From: an uncultured Treponema sp.
Lineage (GTDB): Bacteria > Spirochaetota > Spirochaetia > Treponematales > Treponemataceae
Assembly (NCBI RefSeq): GCF_945873775.1
Contig: NZ_CAMCEC010000005.1
Span: forward strand, 63,770-127,769
Direction of reading: 5' to 3'
DNA length: 64,000 nt
Part shown: positions 1-55,066 of the stretch, piece after piece
How the letters are laid out: each line of letters begins with the position of its first letter
Position numbering within the stretch: the first letter of the stretch is position 1
Notes under the pieces: generated by a model
Databases searched by the model: none
Seen by the model: the letters and a program-made list of their open reading frames with translations, nothing else
What the model was told of the DNA's origin: nothing
Made by a program: the position numbers and the translations under genes

Positions 1-1303
1 GTGGTGGCGAAGAGCGCCATCTTCGGAAGCATGTTCTCGTAACGCTTCCAGAGTCCTTTTTCGTTTTTGTGCTGATTCACAAAGCTTTCCACCGCATTGG
101 AGACAAAGCTCTGCGTATGGACGTTCGCATAGTCATCGATAAGAGTTTTCTTGAGATAGCCGGAATCAATCGCCTCCTTCAATCCGTATTCATAGACAAC
201 TTCTGGCATCAGGCGGTTTTCGATATACGGCGTTCCTGTAAAGTTGTAGCAGGCGACAACCTTTGTTCCTGCCGCGTCCAGTTCTTGAACAAGTCCGTCA
301 ATCGTAAGTCGCAGGCTTGTTTCCTTTGTGCGGTCGAGCATATCGTTTTTCAGGGATTTCCCGAAAGCGTGGTGCGCCTCATCGACGTAGATTCCAAGCT
401 GCCTTAGCCGGGTGAGTTTCTGGTAACGCTGGTTCGCCATCAGGGAAGAATCGTCATCGAGCATATAAAGGTCGGCGTTCGGGCTCTCGCGGATTGCGTC
501 TTCCCAGGAATCCTTGAAAAGCAGGTTCTCTGCCGAATCTTCCTTGCGCTTTTTCTTGAGAATGATTTTCTGCGATGTGGAGATGATCAGGTTGAAGTCC
601 GAGCCGTCCATTGTGCTGAGCGCGGCTCCGTCCTCTTCAAGAAAATGGAACTTGATGATTGTATCCAGCTCGTTGGCGTATTTTTCGGTAAAGACCTTTG
701 CCTTATCAAAAGTCTGGATTTCCTTGAGCGACTGCAAGACCGTCGTGTCCGGCGCGAGCACCAGCGCATTGTGGCAGAAACGCTCATCCTTCGGGTATTT
801 ATGGGCAAGCAGAAACTCATAGAAGATGCACAGCGCCATCAGGATTGTCTTTCCGGTTCCCATGGTGAGCGCAAAGATGTAGTTCGCATATTCCTGCCGT
901 AAATCCGAAAGCTGTTCAAAGAATGAAATTAGCGTGTCGCGGTTCGTCGTGTCCAAGACAGAGAAAAGCCCATCGCCGTAATAATGGCTATTGTCGAAAG
1001 TGAACGGAACAGCCGCATTCTCGTTCGCACCTTGAACCATGCGGTTTTTCCGCCAGTCATCGAACAGGTCGGCCAGGCGCGGATTCCCCAGATATTCTTT
1101 TAGGAACACATACATTTCAAACGCCTCGTACTGCGGCTTCCTCAAAAAGGCGTTCGGATTGTCCTTGCGAGGCTCGGCATTTGCAAGAATTGTGCGTGTA
1201 AGATTCGTGTACGATTTTCTGATTTCCTTTTTGTTTGCCGAATAGAACTGCCACATAATGCGGTAGAACGGAAAATCGATTGAGTTTTTTTTGACTTCGC
1301 CAT
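1..1303 (-). pseudogene. res: Type III R-M restriction subunit (DEAD-box helicase), 5' part; frameshifted at an A8 tract after codon 4-6; runs off the window edge
   Basis: Long open frame from ~1284 to the window edge contains LTMGTGKT (Walker A), VDEAHH (motif II) and NFTGTP (motif III). ATG at 1303 has a GGAGG RBS and a TAATG overlap with the upstream ORF, but it is one base out of frame unless A8 (1285-1292) is A9. Confidence 0.85.
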
Positions 1304-3229
1304 TATTTTTCCTCCGCCTGAACCGTGCATTCCCAGGATTCGCTGATAAGGTCGGTAATCTTTATATGGATTGCACCGGCCGTTTCTGGAATATCGTATT
1401 CGCCTTTTACCAGCGCGTTCTTTTCCGGGATGTCGGTGAGGGACGGGCTGAACGTTACGCCGTCGTAGTTCCAGTCGATGAACACGCTTTCGGCAAGCTC
1501 CTTCCAGTCGCTCACGTCGGTCTTTTCGATGCTGAGCTTCTGCAGCAGGTTCATCGGGAAAAAGTTCTCGATGACGAGTTTTCTTCCCTTGACTACAACT
1601 TTTGCGTCGCTGTCTCGCTTGAAGCGCAAATCCTTCTTGTCACGCAAGAGGTCGATGATTTCAAGGTCCACCCGGAATCCCATCTTGTCCGCTTCCTCTT
1701 CAAACTGCGCTTTTAAATTCGGGTCGTGCCCCATGCACACAAAGGTTATCGCTTCGACAGGCTTTGCAGGATTTTCCTTTTGCCTCTCCTGCCACACGGA
1801 AATATCCACGTTGGAAAGCAGCCTGGCGAACTCGCTTGCGGTGGCAATTCGGTTGATTCCGAGAATGCACACCTTGCGGCCGTCGAGCAGCGCGTCATAG
1901 ACATTGCTGTCGGTGAGCTGCTCCATGCCCATCGCTTCGCAGATAAGGCGTTTGGCTTCCAGCTCGTTGCGGAAGAATTCGTAGTCGTTTACGTTATAGA
2001 CTTCAAAGCCTGTGTAGAAAGTGCCGGTACGGTCTGGGGATTCCCGTGTCGGGGCACGGGAATGACATTTCGTAGAAAGGGTTCCGTTTGAGGGATCAGA
2101 GGGGGGGGAAGCCTTCCCCCCCCTGCGTCGCACTTCGTTGCGCCGACACCCCCGCAACGCCCCCGTCATTCTGCGAAAACAGCGTGTCATTGCCGGGCTT
2201 GACCCGACAATCTATCTCCTTCGCCGCTTTCAGAAGCCGTTTTGTGGTGGTCTGGATGGCGCCCAGGTTGATGTCCGCGCCGATAAAGCGCCTGCCGAGC
2301 TTCATGGCGACCGCCTGCGTGGTGCCGCTGCCCATAAAGCAGTCGAATACGAGGTCTCCGGGATTGGAAGATGCCTTGATAATGCGTTCGAGCAGGGCTT
2401 CGGGCTTTTGGGTGGGGTAACCAAGAAATTCTTTACTTGCAGATTTCGTTGTAGAACTCTGTCCAATTTCCCAAACATCATCTGCTTTCTTTTCGTAAAA
2501 CATTTCATAGATTAGGCTACCATCAGGATTTCTTGCTGAAACCAACTTTCCTAATTCTGAAGACCAAATGCGTTTATCACGTTTAGTCGGTTTATCAAGA
2601 GGAATCATAATTGTATTTGCAACAAAACAATTCCCTTTTTTGAACCAAAGGATATTATTGTGATTTGTAGCAAAACCTTTTACATTTCCCTGAAAATTAT
2701 CCGCATAATGCCAAATTATTTCATTCACAAAATTTTGATTTCCGAATACTTCATCAAGAAGTAGTCTCAAATGCCCGCTCTTATGCCAGTCGCAGTGCAG
2801 ATAAATGCTTCCGTTGTCCGCCAAAAGTTCCCGGCACAGAATCAGGCGCTCGTACATGAACTGCAGGTATTCGTCGTTTGTCCAGATGTCGCCGTACTGC
2901 TTTTCCTCGAACGTGGTGCTGTCGGTTTCCGCACTTTTTCCGCGCAGCTCAATCTTCTTCTTGTAGTCCGCCTTGGAATCAAACGGCGGGTCAATGTAAA
3001 TCAGGTTCACCTTGCCCCGGAAGTTTTTTAGCAGGTGGCTCATCACCTGCAGGTTGTCGCCCCAGTAGATTTTGTTCCGCCAGCCGTCCACGTCGTCTCC
3101 GTATCTTTCCTTCAGCTGCGCCGGATAATAGGGCGTGCCGGTAAAGGGGCGCTTTCCCGTCCATCGCAGTTCCGGGTAGCCGCGGATCGGCTCGTAGTTG
3201 AATTCAAAAAGTTCTTTCTGGTCAGTCAT
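1303..3229 (-). pseudogene. mod: Type III R-M methyltransferase subunit (N6-adenine MTase), split into 2096..3229 and 1303..2190 by a frameshift at G8/C8
   Basis: Has IYWGDNL, IYIDPPF, YPTQKPEALLERII and DCFMGSGTT...GADIN motifs. The second frame continues FYTGFEVYNVNDY and ends directly at res. Deleting one base in G8 or C8 (2101-2123) fuses the frames. Confidence 0.85.
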
Positions 3230-3239
3230 GTTTTCCTCG

Positions 3240-6206
3240 TTAAATGTTTTTTCCGCAATAGAATCTGAAGTCGCATTCGGCGCACTGGGCGGGGGCGCAT
3301 TTTCCGCTGCGTGTAAAGTTTTTTCGTTCTATTTTGTGAACAACCTCGTCCACTTCACTGATTGTTTTTTCCACGGAGCTGTTTTCATATCTGTAGCTGA
3401 TTACCGGATTTTCATCGCTTGTGCCTGTGTAGAATAGGTTCAGCCGGCTGATTTCCTTTCCAGTACGCTCATGGAGAATCTTTGCATAGATTTCGAGCTG
3501 ACGGCGGTATTGGGAAAGCCGTTCCTTGCTTTCCTCGTTGTTTACATCTGGCTTTTTGCCGGTCTTAAAGTCAAGAATTTCATAAGTGCCGTCCGAGCCG
3601 CGCACAAGGTCGATTTTTCCTTCAAGAATGTAGTCTTCCTTTTGGAGAGTAACAGGAACTTCCGCCTCTTTTACTTTCTGCCAGTCGTCTTTTGCATAAT
3701 CCACATAGTTCTGAATATTCTTTAGCACAACTTTTAAACTGCTTTCTGAAAAATATGCGTTCTGTGCTTTTGAAATCTGCCGGTAGTTCTCTGCTAGCCA
3801 GAAGTCAATTTTTTCTTTGGTGATTTCGTTTGCCCTGCCTTCAAGAACTGTCCTGTGAATATCCTCGATTGTCTGATGGACAAGTGTTCCGAACAGAAAC
3901 GAGTTATTGCGCACCGGCATAAATTCCAGTTCTCTGTAAAACTTGTACTGCAAAGGGCAGGCTTCATACAAAAGAATATGGCTGGTAAATGAATATTCGT
4001 GCTTTATCTCGCTTGTTTTTACTTCTTCCAGAACTGGAATTGTGTTTCCGCTTTTGAACAGCTCTTCCCAGTCCGGCACATCGTTACATATAGAAGAAAA
4101 ATATTTTGAGGGGCAGTTGCGCTGCCGTTCCGCCCGGTTTCCTCGTGAAGTGTCAATGTCGCTCAATACAAGCAGATTCTGTGCGCGGCTGAATGCGGTG
4201 TAGTAGAGCCGCCAGAAATCAAAATACTTTGTGCGGTTGAGCGGCTCCCATGGTGTTTTTTGGTGATAGAAATTTGCTATGTCCTCATCAAGAGTGTCAA
4301 AATTCTTGCGTGGAGTTCTGCCAAGAGAAGTTACAACAGTTATGGGAAATTGTAATCCCTTTGACTGGTGAATTGTCATAAAGCTTATACAGCCGCTCGG
4401 AGTTGCCATGTCAAAGTCTTCGTATTCTTCAAGGCCGCCGTCATACAGAAAATGAAGGTAGTTTCCAAAAAACTGCTTCAGCACCCAGTACAGCTTCTTT
4501 TTTTCAGAGATGAAGACATTCACATTGAACATCGCTTCAAAACGTGTCAAAAGCTGGCTGAACTTTGCAAGATTGTAGCAGGGGCGCAAATCCTGCACAC
4601 CTGAATCAAGTTCCACATCAAGAAGCTCCTTGAATAGCGGAAACTGCAAAAGCTGATAGAACAAATCCGCAAATGCGTAGTCGGTGTTGTGTGTAAGGTT
4701 GTTCAGCTCCTTGAATTTCTGCGTCGCAAAAATCAGAAGTTTTTTGTGCTTTTCCTTGTCTTTTCTGATTTCATCTCCAAAAAATCTTGAGCAGTTCTCA
4801 TAATATGAATAAATATCATCTTGTTTTCGGCTGTCTGATTTTGGCTTTAAGACTTCCTCAATCAGATTTGGAAAGATGAACATATAAAAGCCCACTGCAA
4901 GACGGATTTCTTTACGCTCAAAAAACATATCGCTTCTGGGACTGAATGTGGGGATTCTGTGTTCTTCAAGATATTGCGCAAGAAAACGTGTGTTGTCATT
5001 TTTTACAGAATATGAAAGGACTGCAATCTGATTGTAGTTTTTTAGAATGTTTTTCTGACGTAATATGCTGATAAAATCTAAAACTTCCTTGCACCATGTT
5101 TCAACTTTTGCGTCTCCCATGACGCGGACCACGCCGGGATAGTTCTCCTGTTCCTCCGTGGTGTTTTTTGCATGAAGAATCGTCTTGTCATAGCGGAAAA
5201 CTTCTCCGTTTTCTCCTTGCCAGTCGCCTGAGCCGCCGTCCTTATCTTCAGCAAGCCATGGGGGTTTCATGTATTTGTTGTAGAAACTGATGATGTCTTT
5301 GTGCGAGCGGAAATTTCTGTTCAGCTCGATTTTTTTACATTCACCTTTTGAGAAATTTTCCTGAAAGCGCAAAATATTTTCTACAGTTGCGCCACGGAAA
5401 CGGTACAAAGCCTGGTCGTCATCGCCTACAACACAGATTCTGTTTTTAGGCGCGGCAAGCTTTAAAAGAATCTGCTCTTGAATACGGTTTGTGTCCTGGT
5501 ACTCGTCTATCATCAGATATTGGATTTTCCTGCGCAAATCATTCAAGACAAAATCGTCTTTTAAAAGTTCCCACATCATCGTCTGAATCAGCGAAAAATC
5601 CAAAGCATTTCGTTCGGAAAGAAGCCCTCTGTATTCTTTTGTGAGTGCGGCAAGAACTGGAAGCGTTTTACTCTCTGTGCAGGCGGAAAGTTTTTCCAGG
5701 TCAAGATTTTCTTCGCTTGGACGGCTCACAAGGGCCGCAATTTTTTTTGCAAAATTCCAGCCGAAATGTCCGCTTACAAGAGTGTCAAGATTTTCTATTT
5801 TATTGAACCGTTCTGAATTTTGAAAAATAAGATACTGCTTTTCAAAGTCATCAAGCACGCGGTAGTTTCTTTTTAGTGTTGTGTGGGCGCGGTATTCCTC
5901 AAGAATGTTCAGAAAAATCGAGTGGAGCGTGCCAATGTACATATCAGAAATATTGATTGTTATTCCAAGTTCATGGGCAAGAGAAGAAATTCGGCTCACA
6001 AGTTCCTTCGCCGCTTTTTCGGTAAAAGTCGCCACTAAAATGCTGGATGACGGAATACCCAAATCTGCGACAAGATGAATCACCCTGTCCACAAGCGTTT
6101 TTGTCTTTCCTGCTCCAGGGCCCGCAATTACAAGAAGCGGCTGTTCGGTGGTGAGGATAACGGATTGTTGCTCCTGTGTGGAGGCGGAAAAGTCTAAAAC
6201 TGGCAT
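3240..6206 (-). CDS. UvrD/REP-family helicase fused to a C-terminal PD-(D/E)XK (RecB/Cas4-like) nuclease
   Basis: AGPGAGKT, IDEYQDTN, VGDDDQALYRFRGA and MTIHQSKGLQF helicase motifs. C-terminal YEACP...GKIDLV...DFKTG...QLEIY...CAPAQCAECDFRFYC. Confidence 0.9.
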   Translation of the reverse strand: MPVLDFSASTQEQQSVILTTEQPLLVIAGPGAGKTKTLVDRVIHLVADLGIPSSSILVATFTEKAAKELVSRISSLAHELGITINISDMYIGTLHSIFLNILEEYRAHTTLKRNYRVLDDFEKQYLIFQNSERFNKIENLDTLVSGHFGWNFAKKIAALVSRPSEENLDLEKLSACTESKTLPVLAALTKEYRGLLSERNALDFSLIQTMMWELLKDDFVLNDLRRKIQYLMIDEYQDTNRIQEQILLKLAAPKNRICVVGDDDQALYRFRGATVENILRFQENFSKGECKKIELNRNFRSHKDIISFYNKYMKPPWLAEDKDGGSGDWQGENGEVFRYDKTILHAKNTTEEQENYPGVVRVMGDAKVETWCKEVLDFISILRQKNILKNYNQIAVLSYSVKNDNTRFLAQYLEEHRIPTFSPRSDMFFERKEIRLAVGFYMFIFPNLIEEVLKPKSDSRKQDDIYSYYENCSRFFGDEIRKDKEKHKKLLIFATQKFKELNNLTHNTDYAFADLFYQLLQFPLFKELLDVELDSGVQDLRPCYNLAKFSQLLTRFEAMFNVNVFISEKKKLYWVLKQFFGNYLHFLYDGGLEEYEDFDMATPSGCISFMTIHQSKGLQFPITVVTSLGRTPRKNFDTLDEDIANFYHQKTPWEPLNRTKYFDFWRLYYTAFSRAQNLLVLSDIDTSRGNRAERQRNCPSKYFSSICNDVPDWEELFKSGNTIPVLEEVKTSEIKHEYSFTSHILLYEACPLQYKFYRELEFMPVRNNSFLFGTLVHQTIEDIHRTVLEGRANEITKEKIDFWLAENYRQISKAQNAYFSESSLKVVLKNIQNYVDYAKDDWQKVKEAEVPVTLQKEDYILEGKIDLVRGSDGTYEILDFKTGKKPDVNNEESKERLSQYRRQLEIYAKILHERTGKEISRLNLFYTGTSDENPVISYRYENSSVEKTISEVDEVVHKIERKNFTRSGKCAPAQCAECDFRFYCGKNI

Positions 6207-6328
6207 CTTACATTTTTTAGGCGGTAGAACCGATTTTTATGCAGTAAAATACGGATAAACCCACCTTTTGTATATAATCGGACAGTCTAACCCACTTCTA
6301 TAGTTATTTAAACGGTTATTTTGACCTT

Positions 6329-6643
6329 ATGAATAATTATAAAAATGATTTTATAGATAACCTGATTTTTTACAGAACTCAAAAAAAAATGTCCCAGCTG
6401 GAGCTTTCAGGAATTTGTGATTGCGCAAAAAGCACGATTGGCGGAATCGAGTCAAGAAAAAATTTTCCTTCCTTTGAGCTGATTCTGAAAATAGCCTATG
6501 CGCTTGAAATCCACCCTGCAGACTTGTTCTTGCGGAATGCCAGCCAAAGCCGCAAGGAAGTGCGGAAATTCTTTGACGAGGAAGTTTCTGCAAAACTAAA
6601 GGAAATGGTTGAAAAAAGATTCCCTTTGGTAGAGTTTGAGTAG
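6329..6643 (+). CDS. XRE-family helix-turn-helix regulator
   Basis: RTQKKMSQLELSGICDCAKSTIGGIESRKNFPSFELILKIAYALEI is a typical HTH_3 pattern. Confidence 0.85.
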   Translation: MNNYKNDFIDNLIFYRTQKKMSQLELSGICDCAKSTIGGIESRKNFPSFELILKIAYALEIHPADLFLRNASQSRKEVRKFFDEEVSAKLKEMVEKRFPLVEFE

Positions 6644-6897
6644 TTTTTTCAATGTCTGTTCATTTTTTTAGCTAAAGATTATGTAGAGAAATTAGAAGTA
6701 AAGGGCAGTTTATGCCGTTGTTTTTGAAGGAATGTTCATAAATGAGCCGTGTCCGATGATTGTTCCTGCCTATGAGTATTTGCTGCACATTCTGAATTCC
6801 AAGCTGGAGAAATATTATATACGAAGTCTTGGCTTTACAAGAAACCGCAGCTGCTGAAACAATTTGTTTATTCATTCCTAAATTTCTTTAGAATGAA

Positions 6898-7119
6898 TCA
6901 ATCAGATAATTCATTTTCGATTAAATCTTCTGCCAGATTTTTATAGTCCAGATTTTCTATTCCATTTTCACCTGATTCAATTTGTTTTGCAAGTTTACTG
7001 GAATAATATTTATCCATGGCCTCCCGCAAATCTATTTTTAATGTTGCCGCAAGATAATTAATAATATCTGTTTCGAGATTCTGTTTATAAATTTCAGTTA
7101 AATCTTTTGAATTTGTCAT
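6898..7119 (-). CDS. Small helical protein, DUF3791-like
   Basis: Third gene of a coupled trio (4-bp overlap). DIINYLAATLKIDLREAMDKYYSS resembles DUF3791-type partners. Confidence 0.6.
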   Translation of the reverse strand: MTNSKDLTEIYKQNLETDIINYLAATLKIDLREAMDKYYSSKLAKQIESGENGIENLDYKNLAEDLIENELSD

Positions 7120-55055: not shown

Positions 55056-55066
55056 CCCCCCCCCCC
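55056..55066 (-). repeat. G11 homopolymer at the translation-initiation region of the wecA-like gene
   Basis: TAGT-G11-TAC-TTG-TTG on the - strand. Confidence 0.9.

What the first reader, a model, noticed from the sequence alone, without database searches (positions are those of the whole stretch)
2100..2124. G8-AAGCCTT-C8 perfect palindrome splits the type III Mod between its catalytic core and C-terminal domain
Seen: A-G8-AAG-C-CTT-C8-T is an 11-12 bp hairpin with a 1-nt loop. Frame 1 ends TTC CCC CCC CTC TGA, after all MTase motifs (DPPF, FMGSG). Losing one G or C fuses it to the 1303-ending frame. Established: type III mod genes phase-vary through simple repeats (phasevarions), and CCC-C runs favour +1 ribosomal frameshifting. 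Inference: two slippery tracts may toggle between a methylation-only short Mod and a full-length Mod able to assemble with Res, which differs from the usual ON/OFF switch.
Basis: partly seen in the sequence, partly recalled or inferred. Interest (0 to 1): 0.72.

Follow-up and report, generated by a model that had tools for sequence, protein, structure and literature searches.

The report
Hypervariable G/C palindrome switch in Treponema mod
Two back-to-back runs of G and C inside a restriction-modification methylase gene of a livestock-gut Treponema change length between otherwise identical DNA from many public samples, so this is a real slippage switch of a known kind, unusual in sitting after the enzyme's catalytic core.

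Summary
Window 2100-2124 is A-G8-AAG-C-CTT-C8-T, a perfect 12-bp-arm palindrome. It lies in a minus-strand Type III-like mod gene and ends the 377-aa methyltransferase frame at TGA 2098-2096. Removing one G or C gives a 641-aa protein.

The palindrome sits in a 174-nt GC-rich insert (2039-2212) bounded by two REP-like hairpins. The insert lies in the linker between the methyltransferase core and a conserved 245-aa C-terminal domain (CTD). Relatives carry the insert in frame with G5/C5.

Contigs resolve the site in 21 public runs (cattle, sheep, pig, faeces) and show 12 alleles of 22-26 nt. Both tracts vary, and the flanks are identical. Four alleles are in frame and 17 are truncated. The genome has 60 G/C runs of 8 or more but only 8 of length 7, the signature of poly-G contingency loci.

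The best reading is a DNA-level slipped-strand phase-variation switch, caught OFF here. Ribosomal frameshifting has no support. The "methylase without Res" idea is plausible only by analogy with EcoP15I, and it is weakened because the translationally coupled start of res is itself out of frame in this lineage.

The parts
2100..2124 (.). Perfect palindrome A-G8-AAG-C-CTT-C8-T. This is the hypervariable site.
   Evidence: There are 12 alleles of 22-26 nt in 21 runs.
2116..2123 (-). First tract in mRNA sense (G8 on the minus strand, C8 on the + strand). Seen as C7, C8, C9 and C10, and interrupted as CCTC6.
2101..2108 (-). Second tract in mRNA sense (C8 on the minus strand, G8 on the + strand). 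Seen as G7, G8, G9 and G10.
2039..2212 (-). 174-nt GC-rich insert (GC about 0.61-0.66 against 0.395 for the genome) in the MTase-CTD linker. It is translated in ON alleles as about 57 disordered residues.
   Evidence: Homologues without the insert have an 84-95-nt linker. pLDDT is below 40 for residues 345-400.
2185..2212 (-). REP-like hairpin GATTGTCGGGTCAAGCCCGGCAATGACA, at the 5' end of the insert in mRNA sense.
   Evidence: The hairpin family has 116 copies with perfect arms of 8 nt or more in the genome.
2039..2067 (-). REP-like hairpin TGTCATTCCCGTGCCCCGACACGGGAATC, at the 3' end of the insert, inverted relative to the first.
2096..3229 (-). mod 5' ORF of 377 aa in this assembly: N-terminal region, motif IV DPPF, AT-rich target-recognition region, motif I FMGSG.
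   Evidence: The best PADLOC match is MTase_III PDLC03633. The best Foldseek matches are EcoP15I Mod 4zcf and 6k0w.
1303..2037 (-). Conserved C-terminal domain of Mod (244 aa plus stop), out of frame with the 5' ORF in this assembly.
   Evidence: 29 residues are invariant across phyla. The domain is almost always the C-terminus of proteins of about 600 aa. Model pLDDT is 83.
3..1256 (-). res (995 aa in the whole genome; ResIII helicase), read from the internal ATG at 1256.
1285..1292 (-). A8 (mRNA sense) just after the TAATG-coupled res start at 1303-1301. The sequence is one base short compared with relatives (MAKSKKSSIDFPFYRIMWQFY), so the coupled start is out of frame.
   Evidence: No length change in X2, X5, X9, X17 or L021.
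3240..6206 (-). Gene for a UvrD-type helicase fused to a PD-(D/E)XK/Cas4-like nuclease, the first gene of the operon.
   Evidence: The same gene order occurs in L021, L022, L101 and L102.

Best explanation
The palindrome is a hypermutable DNA site, made of two inverted G/C homopolymers, that acts as a slipped-strand phase-variation switch for a Type III-like mod gene of a gut Treponema.

Shown: it arose inside a repeat-derived insert that relatives translate in frame as a disordered linker between the methyltransferase core and the conserved C-terminal domain.

Inferred history: in this lineage a 19-nt deletion between GGGGGTGTC direct repeats went together with growth of the ancestral G5/C5 hairpin arms to 7-10 nt. 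Slippage during replication, probably helped by hairpin formation, now changes the length. Templated changes at the arm/loop border (AAG, AAAG, AAAAG) also occur.

Shown consequences: a total palindrome length of 22 or 25 nt gives full-length Mod (641-642 aa). A length of 23 or 26 nt gives a 377/378-aa product, and 24 nt gives a 413-aa product. Both short products lack the C-terminal domain. This assembly is in the 377-aa OFF state.

Inferred: the switching is reversible and biologically used, like the genome's other poly-G tracts. What the truncated Mod does is unknown.
For: - Alleles. 21 runs with the site resolved give 12 distinct alleles: G7-G10, C7-C10, and an A run of 2-4.
- Flanks. The other 428 nt of 1900-2350 are identical in all of these runs. 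No other difference is seen in 1-3229 in four runs from four studies. One run differs from the window by a single SNP plus the tract over 7 kb.
- Reproducibility. The same allele recurs in separate runs of one study: X5, X6, X7 and X14, and X17, X18 and X19. This argues against random homopolymer error.
- ON state reached several ways. In-frame alleles are G7/C8, G8/C10, G7-AAAG-C7 and one 25-nt allele.
- Unresolved runs. Contigs break exactly at the palindrome in six further runs, including two labelled as single organisms at 15-80x depth.
- Genome context. G/C run counts are 190, 16 and 8 for lengths 5, 6 and 7, then 33, 21, 4 and 2 for lengths 8 to 11. Most long tracts lie at 5' ends of genes or in TTGAC...TA promoter spacers.
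- Ancestry. Relatives and an intergenic copy of the element have G4-5/C4-5 and are in frame.
- The downstream parts are intact. The CTD is conserved across phyla and the Res ORF is intact.
Against: - Only assembled contigs were available. Within-clone switching and its rate were not observed.
- ON alleles are 4 of 21, below the one third expected from a random walk. There is therefore no sign that the full-length form is selected, and runs from one study are not independent.
- The coupled start of res is out of frame in all sequences seen, which fits an operon in decay equally well.
- One ON allele comes from an RNA-seq library (X13).
- Low-depth contigs (6-20x) could carry occasional homopolymer miscalls.
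Confidence: 0.7

Rival explanations
1. Domain-level switch. The truncated 377/413-aa Mod remains an active, dimeric methyltransferase but cannot recruit Res. The tract would then toggle restriction, or another CTD-dependent function, while methylation stays on.
For: - The short product holds the complete N6_N4_Mtase domain and the target-recognition region.
- It aligns end to end with stand-alone 260-aa M.MboIIA.
- In EcoP15I, Mod dimerises through the NTD and MTase domains, and the CTD of one protomer makes the extensive contacts with Res (PMC4490356).
- Homopolymers with a frame change occur in the same linker in distant Poribacteria members of the family (L084 and L085, C9).
- Truncated alleles predominate in nature, 17 of 21.
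Against: - No methylation data exist.
- The CTD here is 245 aa against 106 aa in EcoP15I, and it has no significant PDB fold match when searched alone, so equivalence is positional only.
- The CTD has 29 residues invariant across phyla, so it may be needed for Mod activity itself.
- The coupled start of res is out of frame in this lineage, so there may be no Res to uncouple from.
Confidence: 0.18
2. Neutral decay. The R-M operon is being lost in this lineage. The palindrome is merely its most mutable site, and the in-frame alleles are chance outcomes without function.
For: - ON is 4 of 21, not above the random one third.
- The coupled res start is frameshifted and fixed.
- Some alleles have interrupted tracts (X30, X38), as expected when a tract degenerates.
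Against: - There are no other disabling mutations in mod, the CTD or the 995-aa Res ORF in any sample.
- The ON frame was reached by at least three different tract combinations.
- The genome maintains 60 long G/C tracts against strong depletion of lengths 6-7. This indicates selection for such tracts in general.
- The tract expansion exactly compensates the 19-nt deletion in ON alleles.
Confidence: 0.2
3. Recoding. Full-length Mod is made from the G8/C8 template by +1 ribosomal frameshifting on CCC-C, or by transcriptional slippage.
For: - CCC CCC CUC UGA contains Pro codons that are prone to +1 slippage, with a stop codon two codons further on.
- A very stable hairpin is present in the mRNA.
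Against: - Relatives are in frame without recoding.
- The frame state is not conserved among alleles. The commonest 24-nt alleles would need the opposite shift.
- The slippery run lies in the 3' arm of the hairpin and not upstream of it.
- No RNA or protein evidence exists.
Confidence: 0.04
4. Sequencing or assembly artefact at a GC-rich homopolymer hairpin.
For: Homopolymers and inverted repeats raise Illumina error rates. Several runs fail to assemble across the site.
Against: - The G8/C8 state is reproduced in X1 and X10.
- Identical non-reference alleles recur in independent runs of one study, at depths up to 309x.
- The alleles also differ by substitutions.
Confidence: 0.03

Closest known systems
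Poly-G phase-variable Type III mod genes (phasevarions), such as Helicobacter pylori modH; surveyed in PMC5909438
   Same: A beta-class N6-adenine Mod with a swappable central TRD and an adjacent res. A mononucleotide tract in the ORF changes length and moves the gene in and out of frame. Natural populations hold both states.
   Different: - Here there are two inverted tracts forming a perfect palindrome, and both vary.
- The site lies after the complete MTase core, in the interdomain linker, so OFF products keep the methyltransferase and TRD.
- The tract derives from a repeat-element insertion.
- The host is a commensal livestock-gut Treponema. The word Treponema does not occur in the main text of the 2018 survey.
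Haemophilus influenzae modA phasevarions with inactivated res (PMC1976455)
   Same: A phase-variable mod is combined with a res gene carrying a frameshift. This suggests drift from a defence role to a regulatory role.
   Different: - The repeat there is a tetranucleotide near the 5' end.
- Here the lesion in res affects only the coupled start. A 995-aa ORF from Met17 remains intact.
Poly-G tracts of Treponema pallidum tpr-family promoters (PMC7864442)
   Same: Treponemes use G-run length as a contingency mechanism. In this genome 13 of the 60 tracts lie in TTGAC...TA promoter spacers.
   Different: Those tracts act on transcription from promoter spacers. This one acts on the reading frame in mid-gene.
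Rickettsia palindromic elements and other translated REP/MITE insertions (from my own knowledge)
   Same: A short palindromic repeat family is inserted in frame in a protein-coding gene and tolerated as an extra surface or linker peptide.
   Different: Here the inserted element has secondarily become a frameshift switch.
EcoP15I Mod (PDB 4ZCF; PMC4490356)
   Same: The domain order is the same: NTD, MTase with inserted TRD, linker, CTD. It is the best whole-chain Foldseek match (E = 2e-18).
   Different: - Sequence similarity is confined to the MTase core.
- The CTD here is more than twice as long and unmatched in the PDB.
- An extra UvrD-nuclease gene heads the operon.

Membership tests
SSR-driven phase-variable Type III mod (phasevarion-type switch) | The gene encodes a Type III-architecture beta-class N6-adenine Mod. 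| tested here: met
   Pfam PF01555 E = 9e-53. The best PADLOC match is MTase_III, E = 2e-64. The best Foldseek matches are EcoP15I Mod and H. pylori Mod over about 600 columns.
SSR-driven phase-variable Type III mod (phasevarion-type switch) | A simple-sequence repeat lies inside the ORF, and its length sets the reading frame. | tested here: met
   Simulated alleles give 641/642 aa (22 or 25 nt), 377/378 aa (23 or 26 nt) and 413 aa (24 nt).
SSR-driven phase-variable Type III mod (phasevarion-type switch) | The tract length differs among otherwise identical sequences, and both in-frame and out-of-frame states occur. | tested here: met
   12 alleles in 21 runs, 4 of them in frame, with invariant flanks.
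SSR-driven phase-variable Type III mod (phasevarion-type switch) | High-frequency, reversible switching within a clonal population. | tested here: inconclusive
   Only consensus contigs were available. Contig breaks at the palindrome in six runs, including organism-labelled ones, hint at mixtures but do not prove them.
SSR-driven phase-variable Type III mod (phasevarion-type switch) | Switching changes genome methylation and the expression of a regulon. | not testable with these tools
   No methylome or paired transcriptome data were available.
Type III restriction-modification system | An adjacent, co-oriented res gene encodes an SF2 helicase plus an endonuclease. | tested here: inconclusive
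   A 995-aa ORF downstream of mod matches ResIII. Matches to Tn7_TnsA-like_N and to PADLOC REase_III are weak. Its ancestral coupled start is out of frame here.
Programmed ribosomal frameshift site | The out-of-frame arrangement and the slippery/stimulator motif are conserved among relatives. | tested here: not met
   Relatives are in frame with G5/C5. Alleles of the same strain occupy all three frames.
Translated REP/RPE-like intragenic repeat | The element belongs to a dispersed repeat family of the same genome. | tested here: met
   The terminal hairpins match about 50 other places. 116 hairpins of the family have perfect arms. A copy of the core lies at C23:16594-16690.
Translated REP/RPE-like intragenic repeat | The element is inserted in frame and read through as protein in intact genes. 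| tested here: met
   P0002-P0008 carry the insert in intact Mods of 627-681 aa. Homologues of 575-587 aa lack it.

The most novel reading that the evidence does not exclude
The switch is domain-level and not ON/OFF. Slippage removes only the conserved C-terminal domain, leaving a self-sufficient methyltransferase. Populations would then toggle a CTD-dependent activity, such as Res recruitment and hence restriction, without ever losing protective or regulatory methylation. The same linker position has been hit independently by homopolymers in distant phyla of this Mod family (Poribacteria C9). That would make it a recurrent, selected design, seeded here by a translated repeat element.
Probability: 0.18. 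Interest if true: 0.7.

Novelty: new variant of a known kind. Interest (0 to 1): 0.5.

Why it matters
Phase-variable Type III methyltransferases are known almost only from pathogens, where they reprogramme gene expression. This locus matters for four reasons.
- It shows the same type of switch in a commensal Treponema that public data place in cattle, sheep and pig guts.
- It comes with a ready-made natural allele series: 12 alleles in all three frames.
- It documents how such a switch can arise. A translated palindromic repeat inserted in a flexible linker, followed by a deletion and compensating growth of its G/C hairpin arms.
- Because the break leaves the whole methyltransferase intact, this locus is a good system for testing whether Mod's C-terminal domain is needed for methylation or only for coupling to Res.

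Tried and rejected
- Rfam scan of 1800-2450 on both strands: nothing near a gathering score. The insert is not a known RNA.
- Intrinsic terminator reading: no U-run follows the hairpin on either strand.
- CTD identification by sequence: no hits in Pfam, NCBIfam or PDB. By fold with the CTD modelled alone: no match at E <= 0.001. I could not show that it is the EcoP15I-type Res-docking domain.
- Search for natural stand-alone short Mods or stand-alone CTDs: short hits are mostly fragments, and the CTD sits at the C-terminus of proteins of about 600 aa. This gave no support for a naturally split architecture.
- Read-level tract distribution: all holders are kept as Logan contigs and no raw-read run was offered. 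All eight read-laying runs were used.
- The A8 tract at the res start as a second switch: no length change in the six sequences compared.
- The exact letters of the X38 and X30 alleles are ambiguous in the aligner's output. Only their lengths (25 and 26 nt) are safe.
- The 2018 mod survey has no Treponema entry in its main text. I did not search its supplements.

Full report
**1. The observation.** The + strand reads A(2100) G8(2101-2108) AAGCCTT(2109-2115) C8(2116-2123) T(2124).
- The repeat finder reports arms 2100-2111 and 2113-2124, 12 nt, 100% complementary, 1 nt apart.
- As single-stranded DNA either strand folds into an 11-bp stem with a 3-nt loop: -13.2 and -13.0 kcal/mol, z about -3.4.
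- The gene is on the minus strand. ORF 3229..2096 encodes 377 aa and ends TTC CCC CCC CTC TGA. A second frame is open from 2190 to the stop at 1303.
- Pfam N6_N4_Mtase covers residues 74-328, the full model.
- Removing one base of either tract yields one ORF of 641 aa.
- The description is therefore accurate.
- In the whole genome (2.59 Mb, 49 contigs, GC 39.5%) this is the only place where two G/C runs of 8 or more lie together. It is also the only perfect palindrome with arms of 11 nt or more that is made of homopolymers.

**2. The surroundings.** The operon on the minus strand has three genes.
- A gene for a 988-aa UvrD helicase fused to a PD-(D/E)XK nuclease (6206..3240).
- mod.
- res. The Res ORF is 995 aa in the whole genome and matches ResIII.

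The best PADLOC match for Mod is MTase_III. An AlphaFold model of the full-length protein best matches EcoP15I Mod (4zcf_A, E = 2e-18) and an H. pylori Mod (6k0w) over about 600 columns.

The palindrome lies in a 174-nt GC-rich stretch (2039-2212) with GC about 0.61-0.66. The stretch is bounded by two hairpins of a dispersed REP-like family (GTCATT...AATC).
- These hairpins match about 50 other places in the genome.
- 116 perfect-arm members of the family can be counted.
- A second, intergenic copy of the core lies at C23:16594-16690.

**3. Relatives.**
- The Mod family, with its C-terminal domain (CTD), is conserved from Treponema to Poribacteria, cyanobacteria and Chloroflexi.
- 29 CTD residues are invariant.
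- In a scan of 1.8 billion representatives the CTD is almost always the C-terminus of proteins of about 600 aa.
- Most Treponema homologues (575-587 aa) have a short linker, KVAEDLNGQLPAENPFYTGFEVY. A subclade (627-681 aa) carries the insert in frame.
- In those relatives the palindrome is G5-AAAGCCTT-C5 in + sense.
- The window's lineage differs in two ways. It has a 19-nt deletion between two GGGGGTGTC direct repeats, and its arms have expanded.
- In-frame alleles of this lineage are 4 nt longer than the ancestral palindrome. The net change is -15 nt, which is in frame.
- In the model, residues 345-400 (the insert) have pLDDT below 40. The insert is thus a disordered linker.

**4. Natural variation.** P0001, a 641-aa protein, comes from a 9.8-kb Logan contig (L021). 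L021 is 99.97% identical to the window over 6,929 nt. Its only gap is G8 to G7 on the + strand.

At least 35 public runs hold the locus, from bovine, ovine and porcine gut, from faeces, one synthetic community and three organism-labelled sets. I laid 32 of them. The 21 runs whose contigs cross the site give these alleles on the + strand.

| Allele (+ strand) | Runs |
|---|---|
| G8-AAGCCTT-C8 | X1, X10 |
| G7/C8 | X13 (= L021, an RNA-seq library) |
| G8/C10 | X2 |
| G9/C8 | X3, X4, X9 |
| G8/C9 | X5, X6, X7, X8, X14 |
| G8-AAAAGCCTT-C7 | X12 |
| G7-AAAGCCTT-C7 | X15 |
| G9-AAAAGCCTT-C8 | X16 |
| G9-AAAGCCTT-C7 | X17, X18, X19 |
| G10-AAAGCCTT-C8 | X32 |
| 26-nt allele with the C tract interrupted | X30 |
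| 25-nt allele | X38 |

- In all of these runs the other 428 nt of 1900-2350 are identical to the window.
- Over 1-7000, X5 differs by one SNP plus the tract. In 1-3229 nothing but the palindrome differs in X2, X5, X9 and X17, which diverge from each other elsewhere.
- Six further runs break their contigs at or around the palindrome (X11, X26, X31, X35, X36, X37).
- Translating each allele gives 641/642 aa for 22 or 25 nt (4 runs), 413 aa for 24 nt (12 runs), and 377/378 aa for 23 or 26 nt (5 runs).

**5. Genome context.** Counts of G/C runs fall from 190 to 16 to 8 for lengths 5, 6 and 7. They then rise to 33, 21, 4 and 2 for lengths 8 to 11.
- Most long tracts lie just upstream of, or early in, long ORFs. 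Thirteen sit in TTGAC...Gn...TA promoter-like spacers.
- This bimodal pattern is typical of organisms that use poly-G contingency loci. Such tracts are documented for T. pallidum promoters (PMC7864442).
- The mod tract pair is unusual in lying about 400 codons into its gene.

**6. Mechanism.**
- Shown: the site is hypervariable at the DNA level and moves mod among all three frames in nature.
- Inferred: slipped-strand mispairing of the two runs, probably aided by hairpin extrusion. Quasi-palindrome-type templated changes at the arm/loop border could explain the AAG, AAAG and AAAAG variants.
- Inferred: the switching is reversible and used by the organism.
- Not shown: within-clone switching, and any phenotype.

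**7.
- In EcoP15I, Mod dimerises through the NTD and MTase domains. It works as a stand-alone methylase. The CTD of one protomer makes the extensive contacts with Res (PMC4490356).
- The break here falls at the equivalent linker. The short product aligns with all of stand-alone M.MboIIA. A CTD-less methylase is therefore plausible.
- Against it, the 245-aa CTD modelled alone (pLDDT 83) has no PDB match at E <= 0.001. Its function is therefore inferred from position only.
- In addition, every relative starts Res with MAKSKKSSIDFPFYRIMWQFY from a TAATG overlap with mod. The window, L021, X2, X5, X9 and X17 are one base short after the A8 (1285-1292). The coupled ATG therefore reads a 53-codon dead-end frame, and Res can only start at Met17 (ATG 1256), which has no evident ribosome-binding site.
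- Res is thus probably weak or silent in this lineage. A phase-variable mod with a disabled res has a precedent in H. influenzae (PMC1976455).
- Ribosomal +1 frameshifting has no support. Relatives are in frame, and the alleles occupy all frames.

**8. Recurrence.** Among 76 family loci from many phyla, two Poribacteria loci (L084, L085) have a C9 with a frame change in the same linker. A regex scan also flagged L082, with a G7. Earlier notes of this scan describe similar linker tracts in other genomes. I treat those notes as leads only.

**9. Verdict.**
- The site is real, and it is a genuine natural hypervariable switch of a known kind (SSR phase variation of a Type III mod). This assembly is in the OFF state.
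- Its variant features are the double inverted tract, its origin in a translated repeat insertion, and its position after the catalytic core.
- A decaying operon with a mutational hotspot remains a serious rival.

Noticed in passing
window 1285-1303: The TAATG-coupled start of res is one base out of frame after an A8 run, compared with all relatives (MAKSKKSSIDFPFYRIMWQFY). This state is fixed in six sequences compared, so Res may start only at Met17 (ATG 1256) or be silent.
   Followed up: partly
whole genome (G000): G/C homopolymers are bimodal: 8 of length 7 but 60 of length 8-11. Most lie at the 5' ends of genes, and 13 lie in TTGAC...Gn...TA promoter-like spacers. This looks like a large poly-G phasome in a commensal Treponema.
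   Followed up: partly
window 55056-55066: A C11 tract lies just upstream of a 354-codon minus-strand ORF. It is another candidate contingency tract inside this window.
   Followed up: no
G000 C23:16594-16690: An intergenic copy of the insert's core element, with a G4-AAAGCCTT-C4 hairpin. This shows the core is itself a dispersed repeat.
   Followed up: partly
window 2421-2770: The target-recognition region of mod is AT-rich (GC 0.33-0.39) between GC-rich conserved flanks. Homologues P0002-P0012 have unrelated sequences there, consistent with swapping of TRD alleles.
   Followed up: partly
L022 7020-8443; L101 3476-4899: In Hadza-gut relatives an AbiEi/AbiEii toxin-antitoxin pair is inserted between mod and res.
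   Followed up: no
window 5264-5651: Run X2 carries a dense patch of substitutions in the UvrD-nuclease gene, while mod and res are identical. It has 56 substitutions over window 1-6743 (only part are listed by position). This looks like a recombination tract.
   Followed up: no
L084 about 5040-5050; L085 about 5075-5085: Two paralogous Poribacteria mod genes carry a C9 run with a frame change in the same MTase-CTD linker.
   Followed up: partly
L023, L024, L025, L057: Contigs carrying a mod of this Treponema-dominated family (73-82% aa identity in the best segment) are filed in MAGs labelled Fibrobacter, Methanomethylophilaceae, Alistipes and Senegalimassilia. This is probably mis-binning, or possibly horizontal transfer.
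   Followed up: no
P0039 (634 aa), linker: A different translated insert (VQGDSPSQRNSHAEQTNCHAELDSASQ...) occupies the same linker in another Treponema homologue. The linker appears to be a hot spot for repeat insertion.
   Followed up: no
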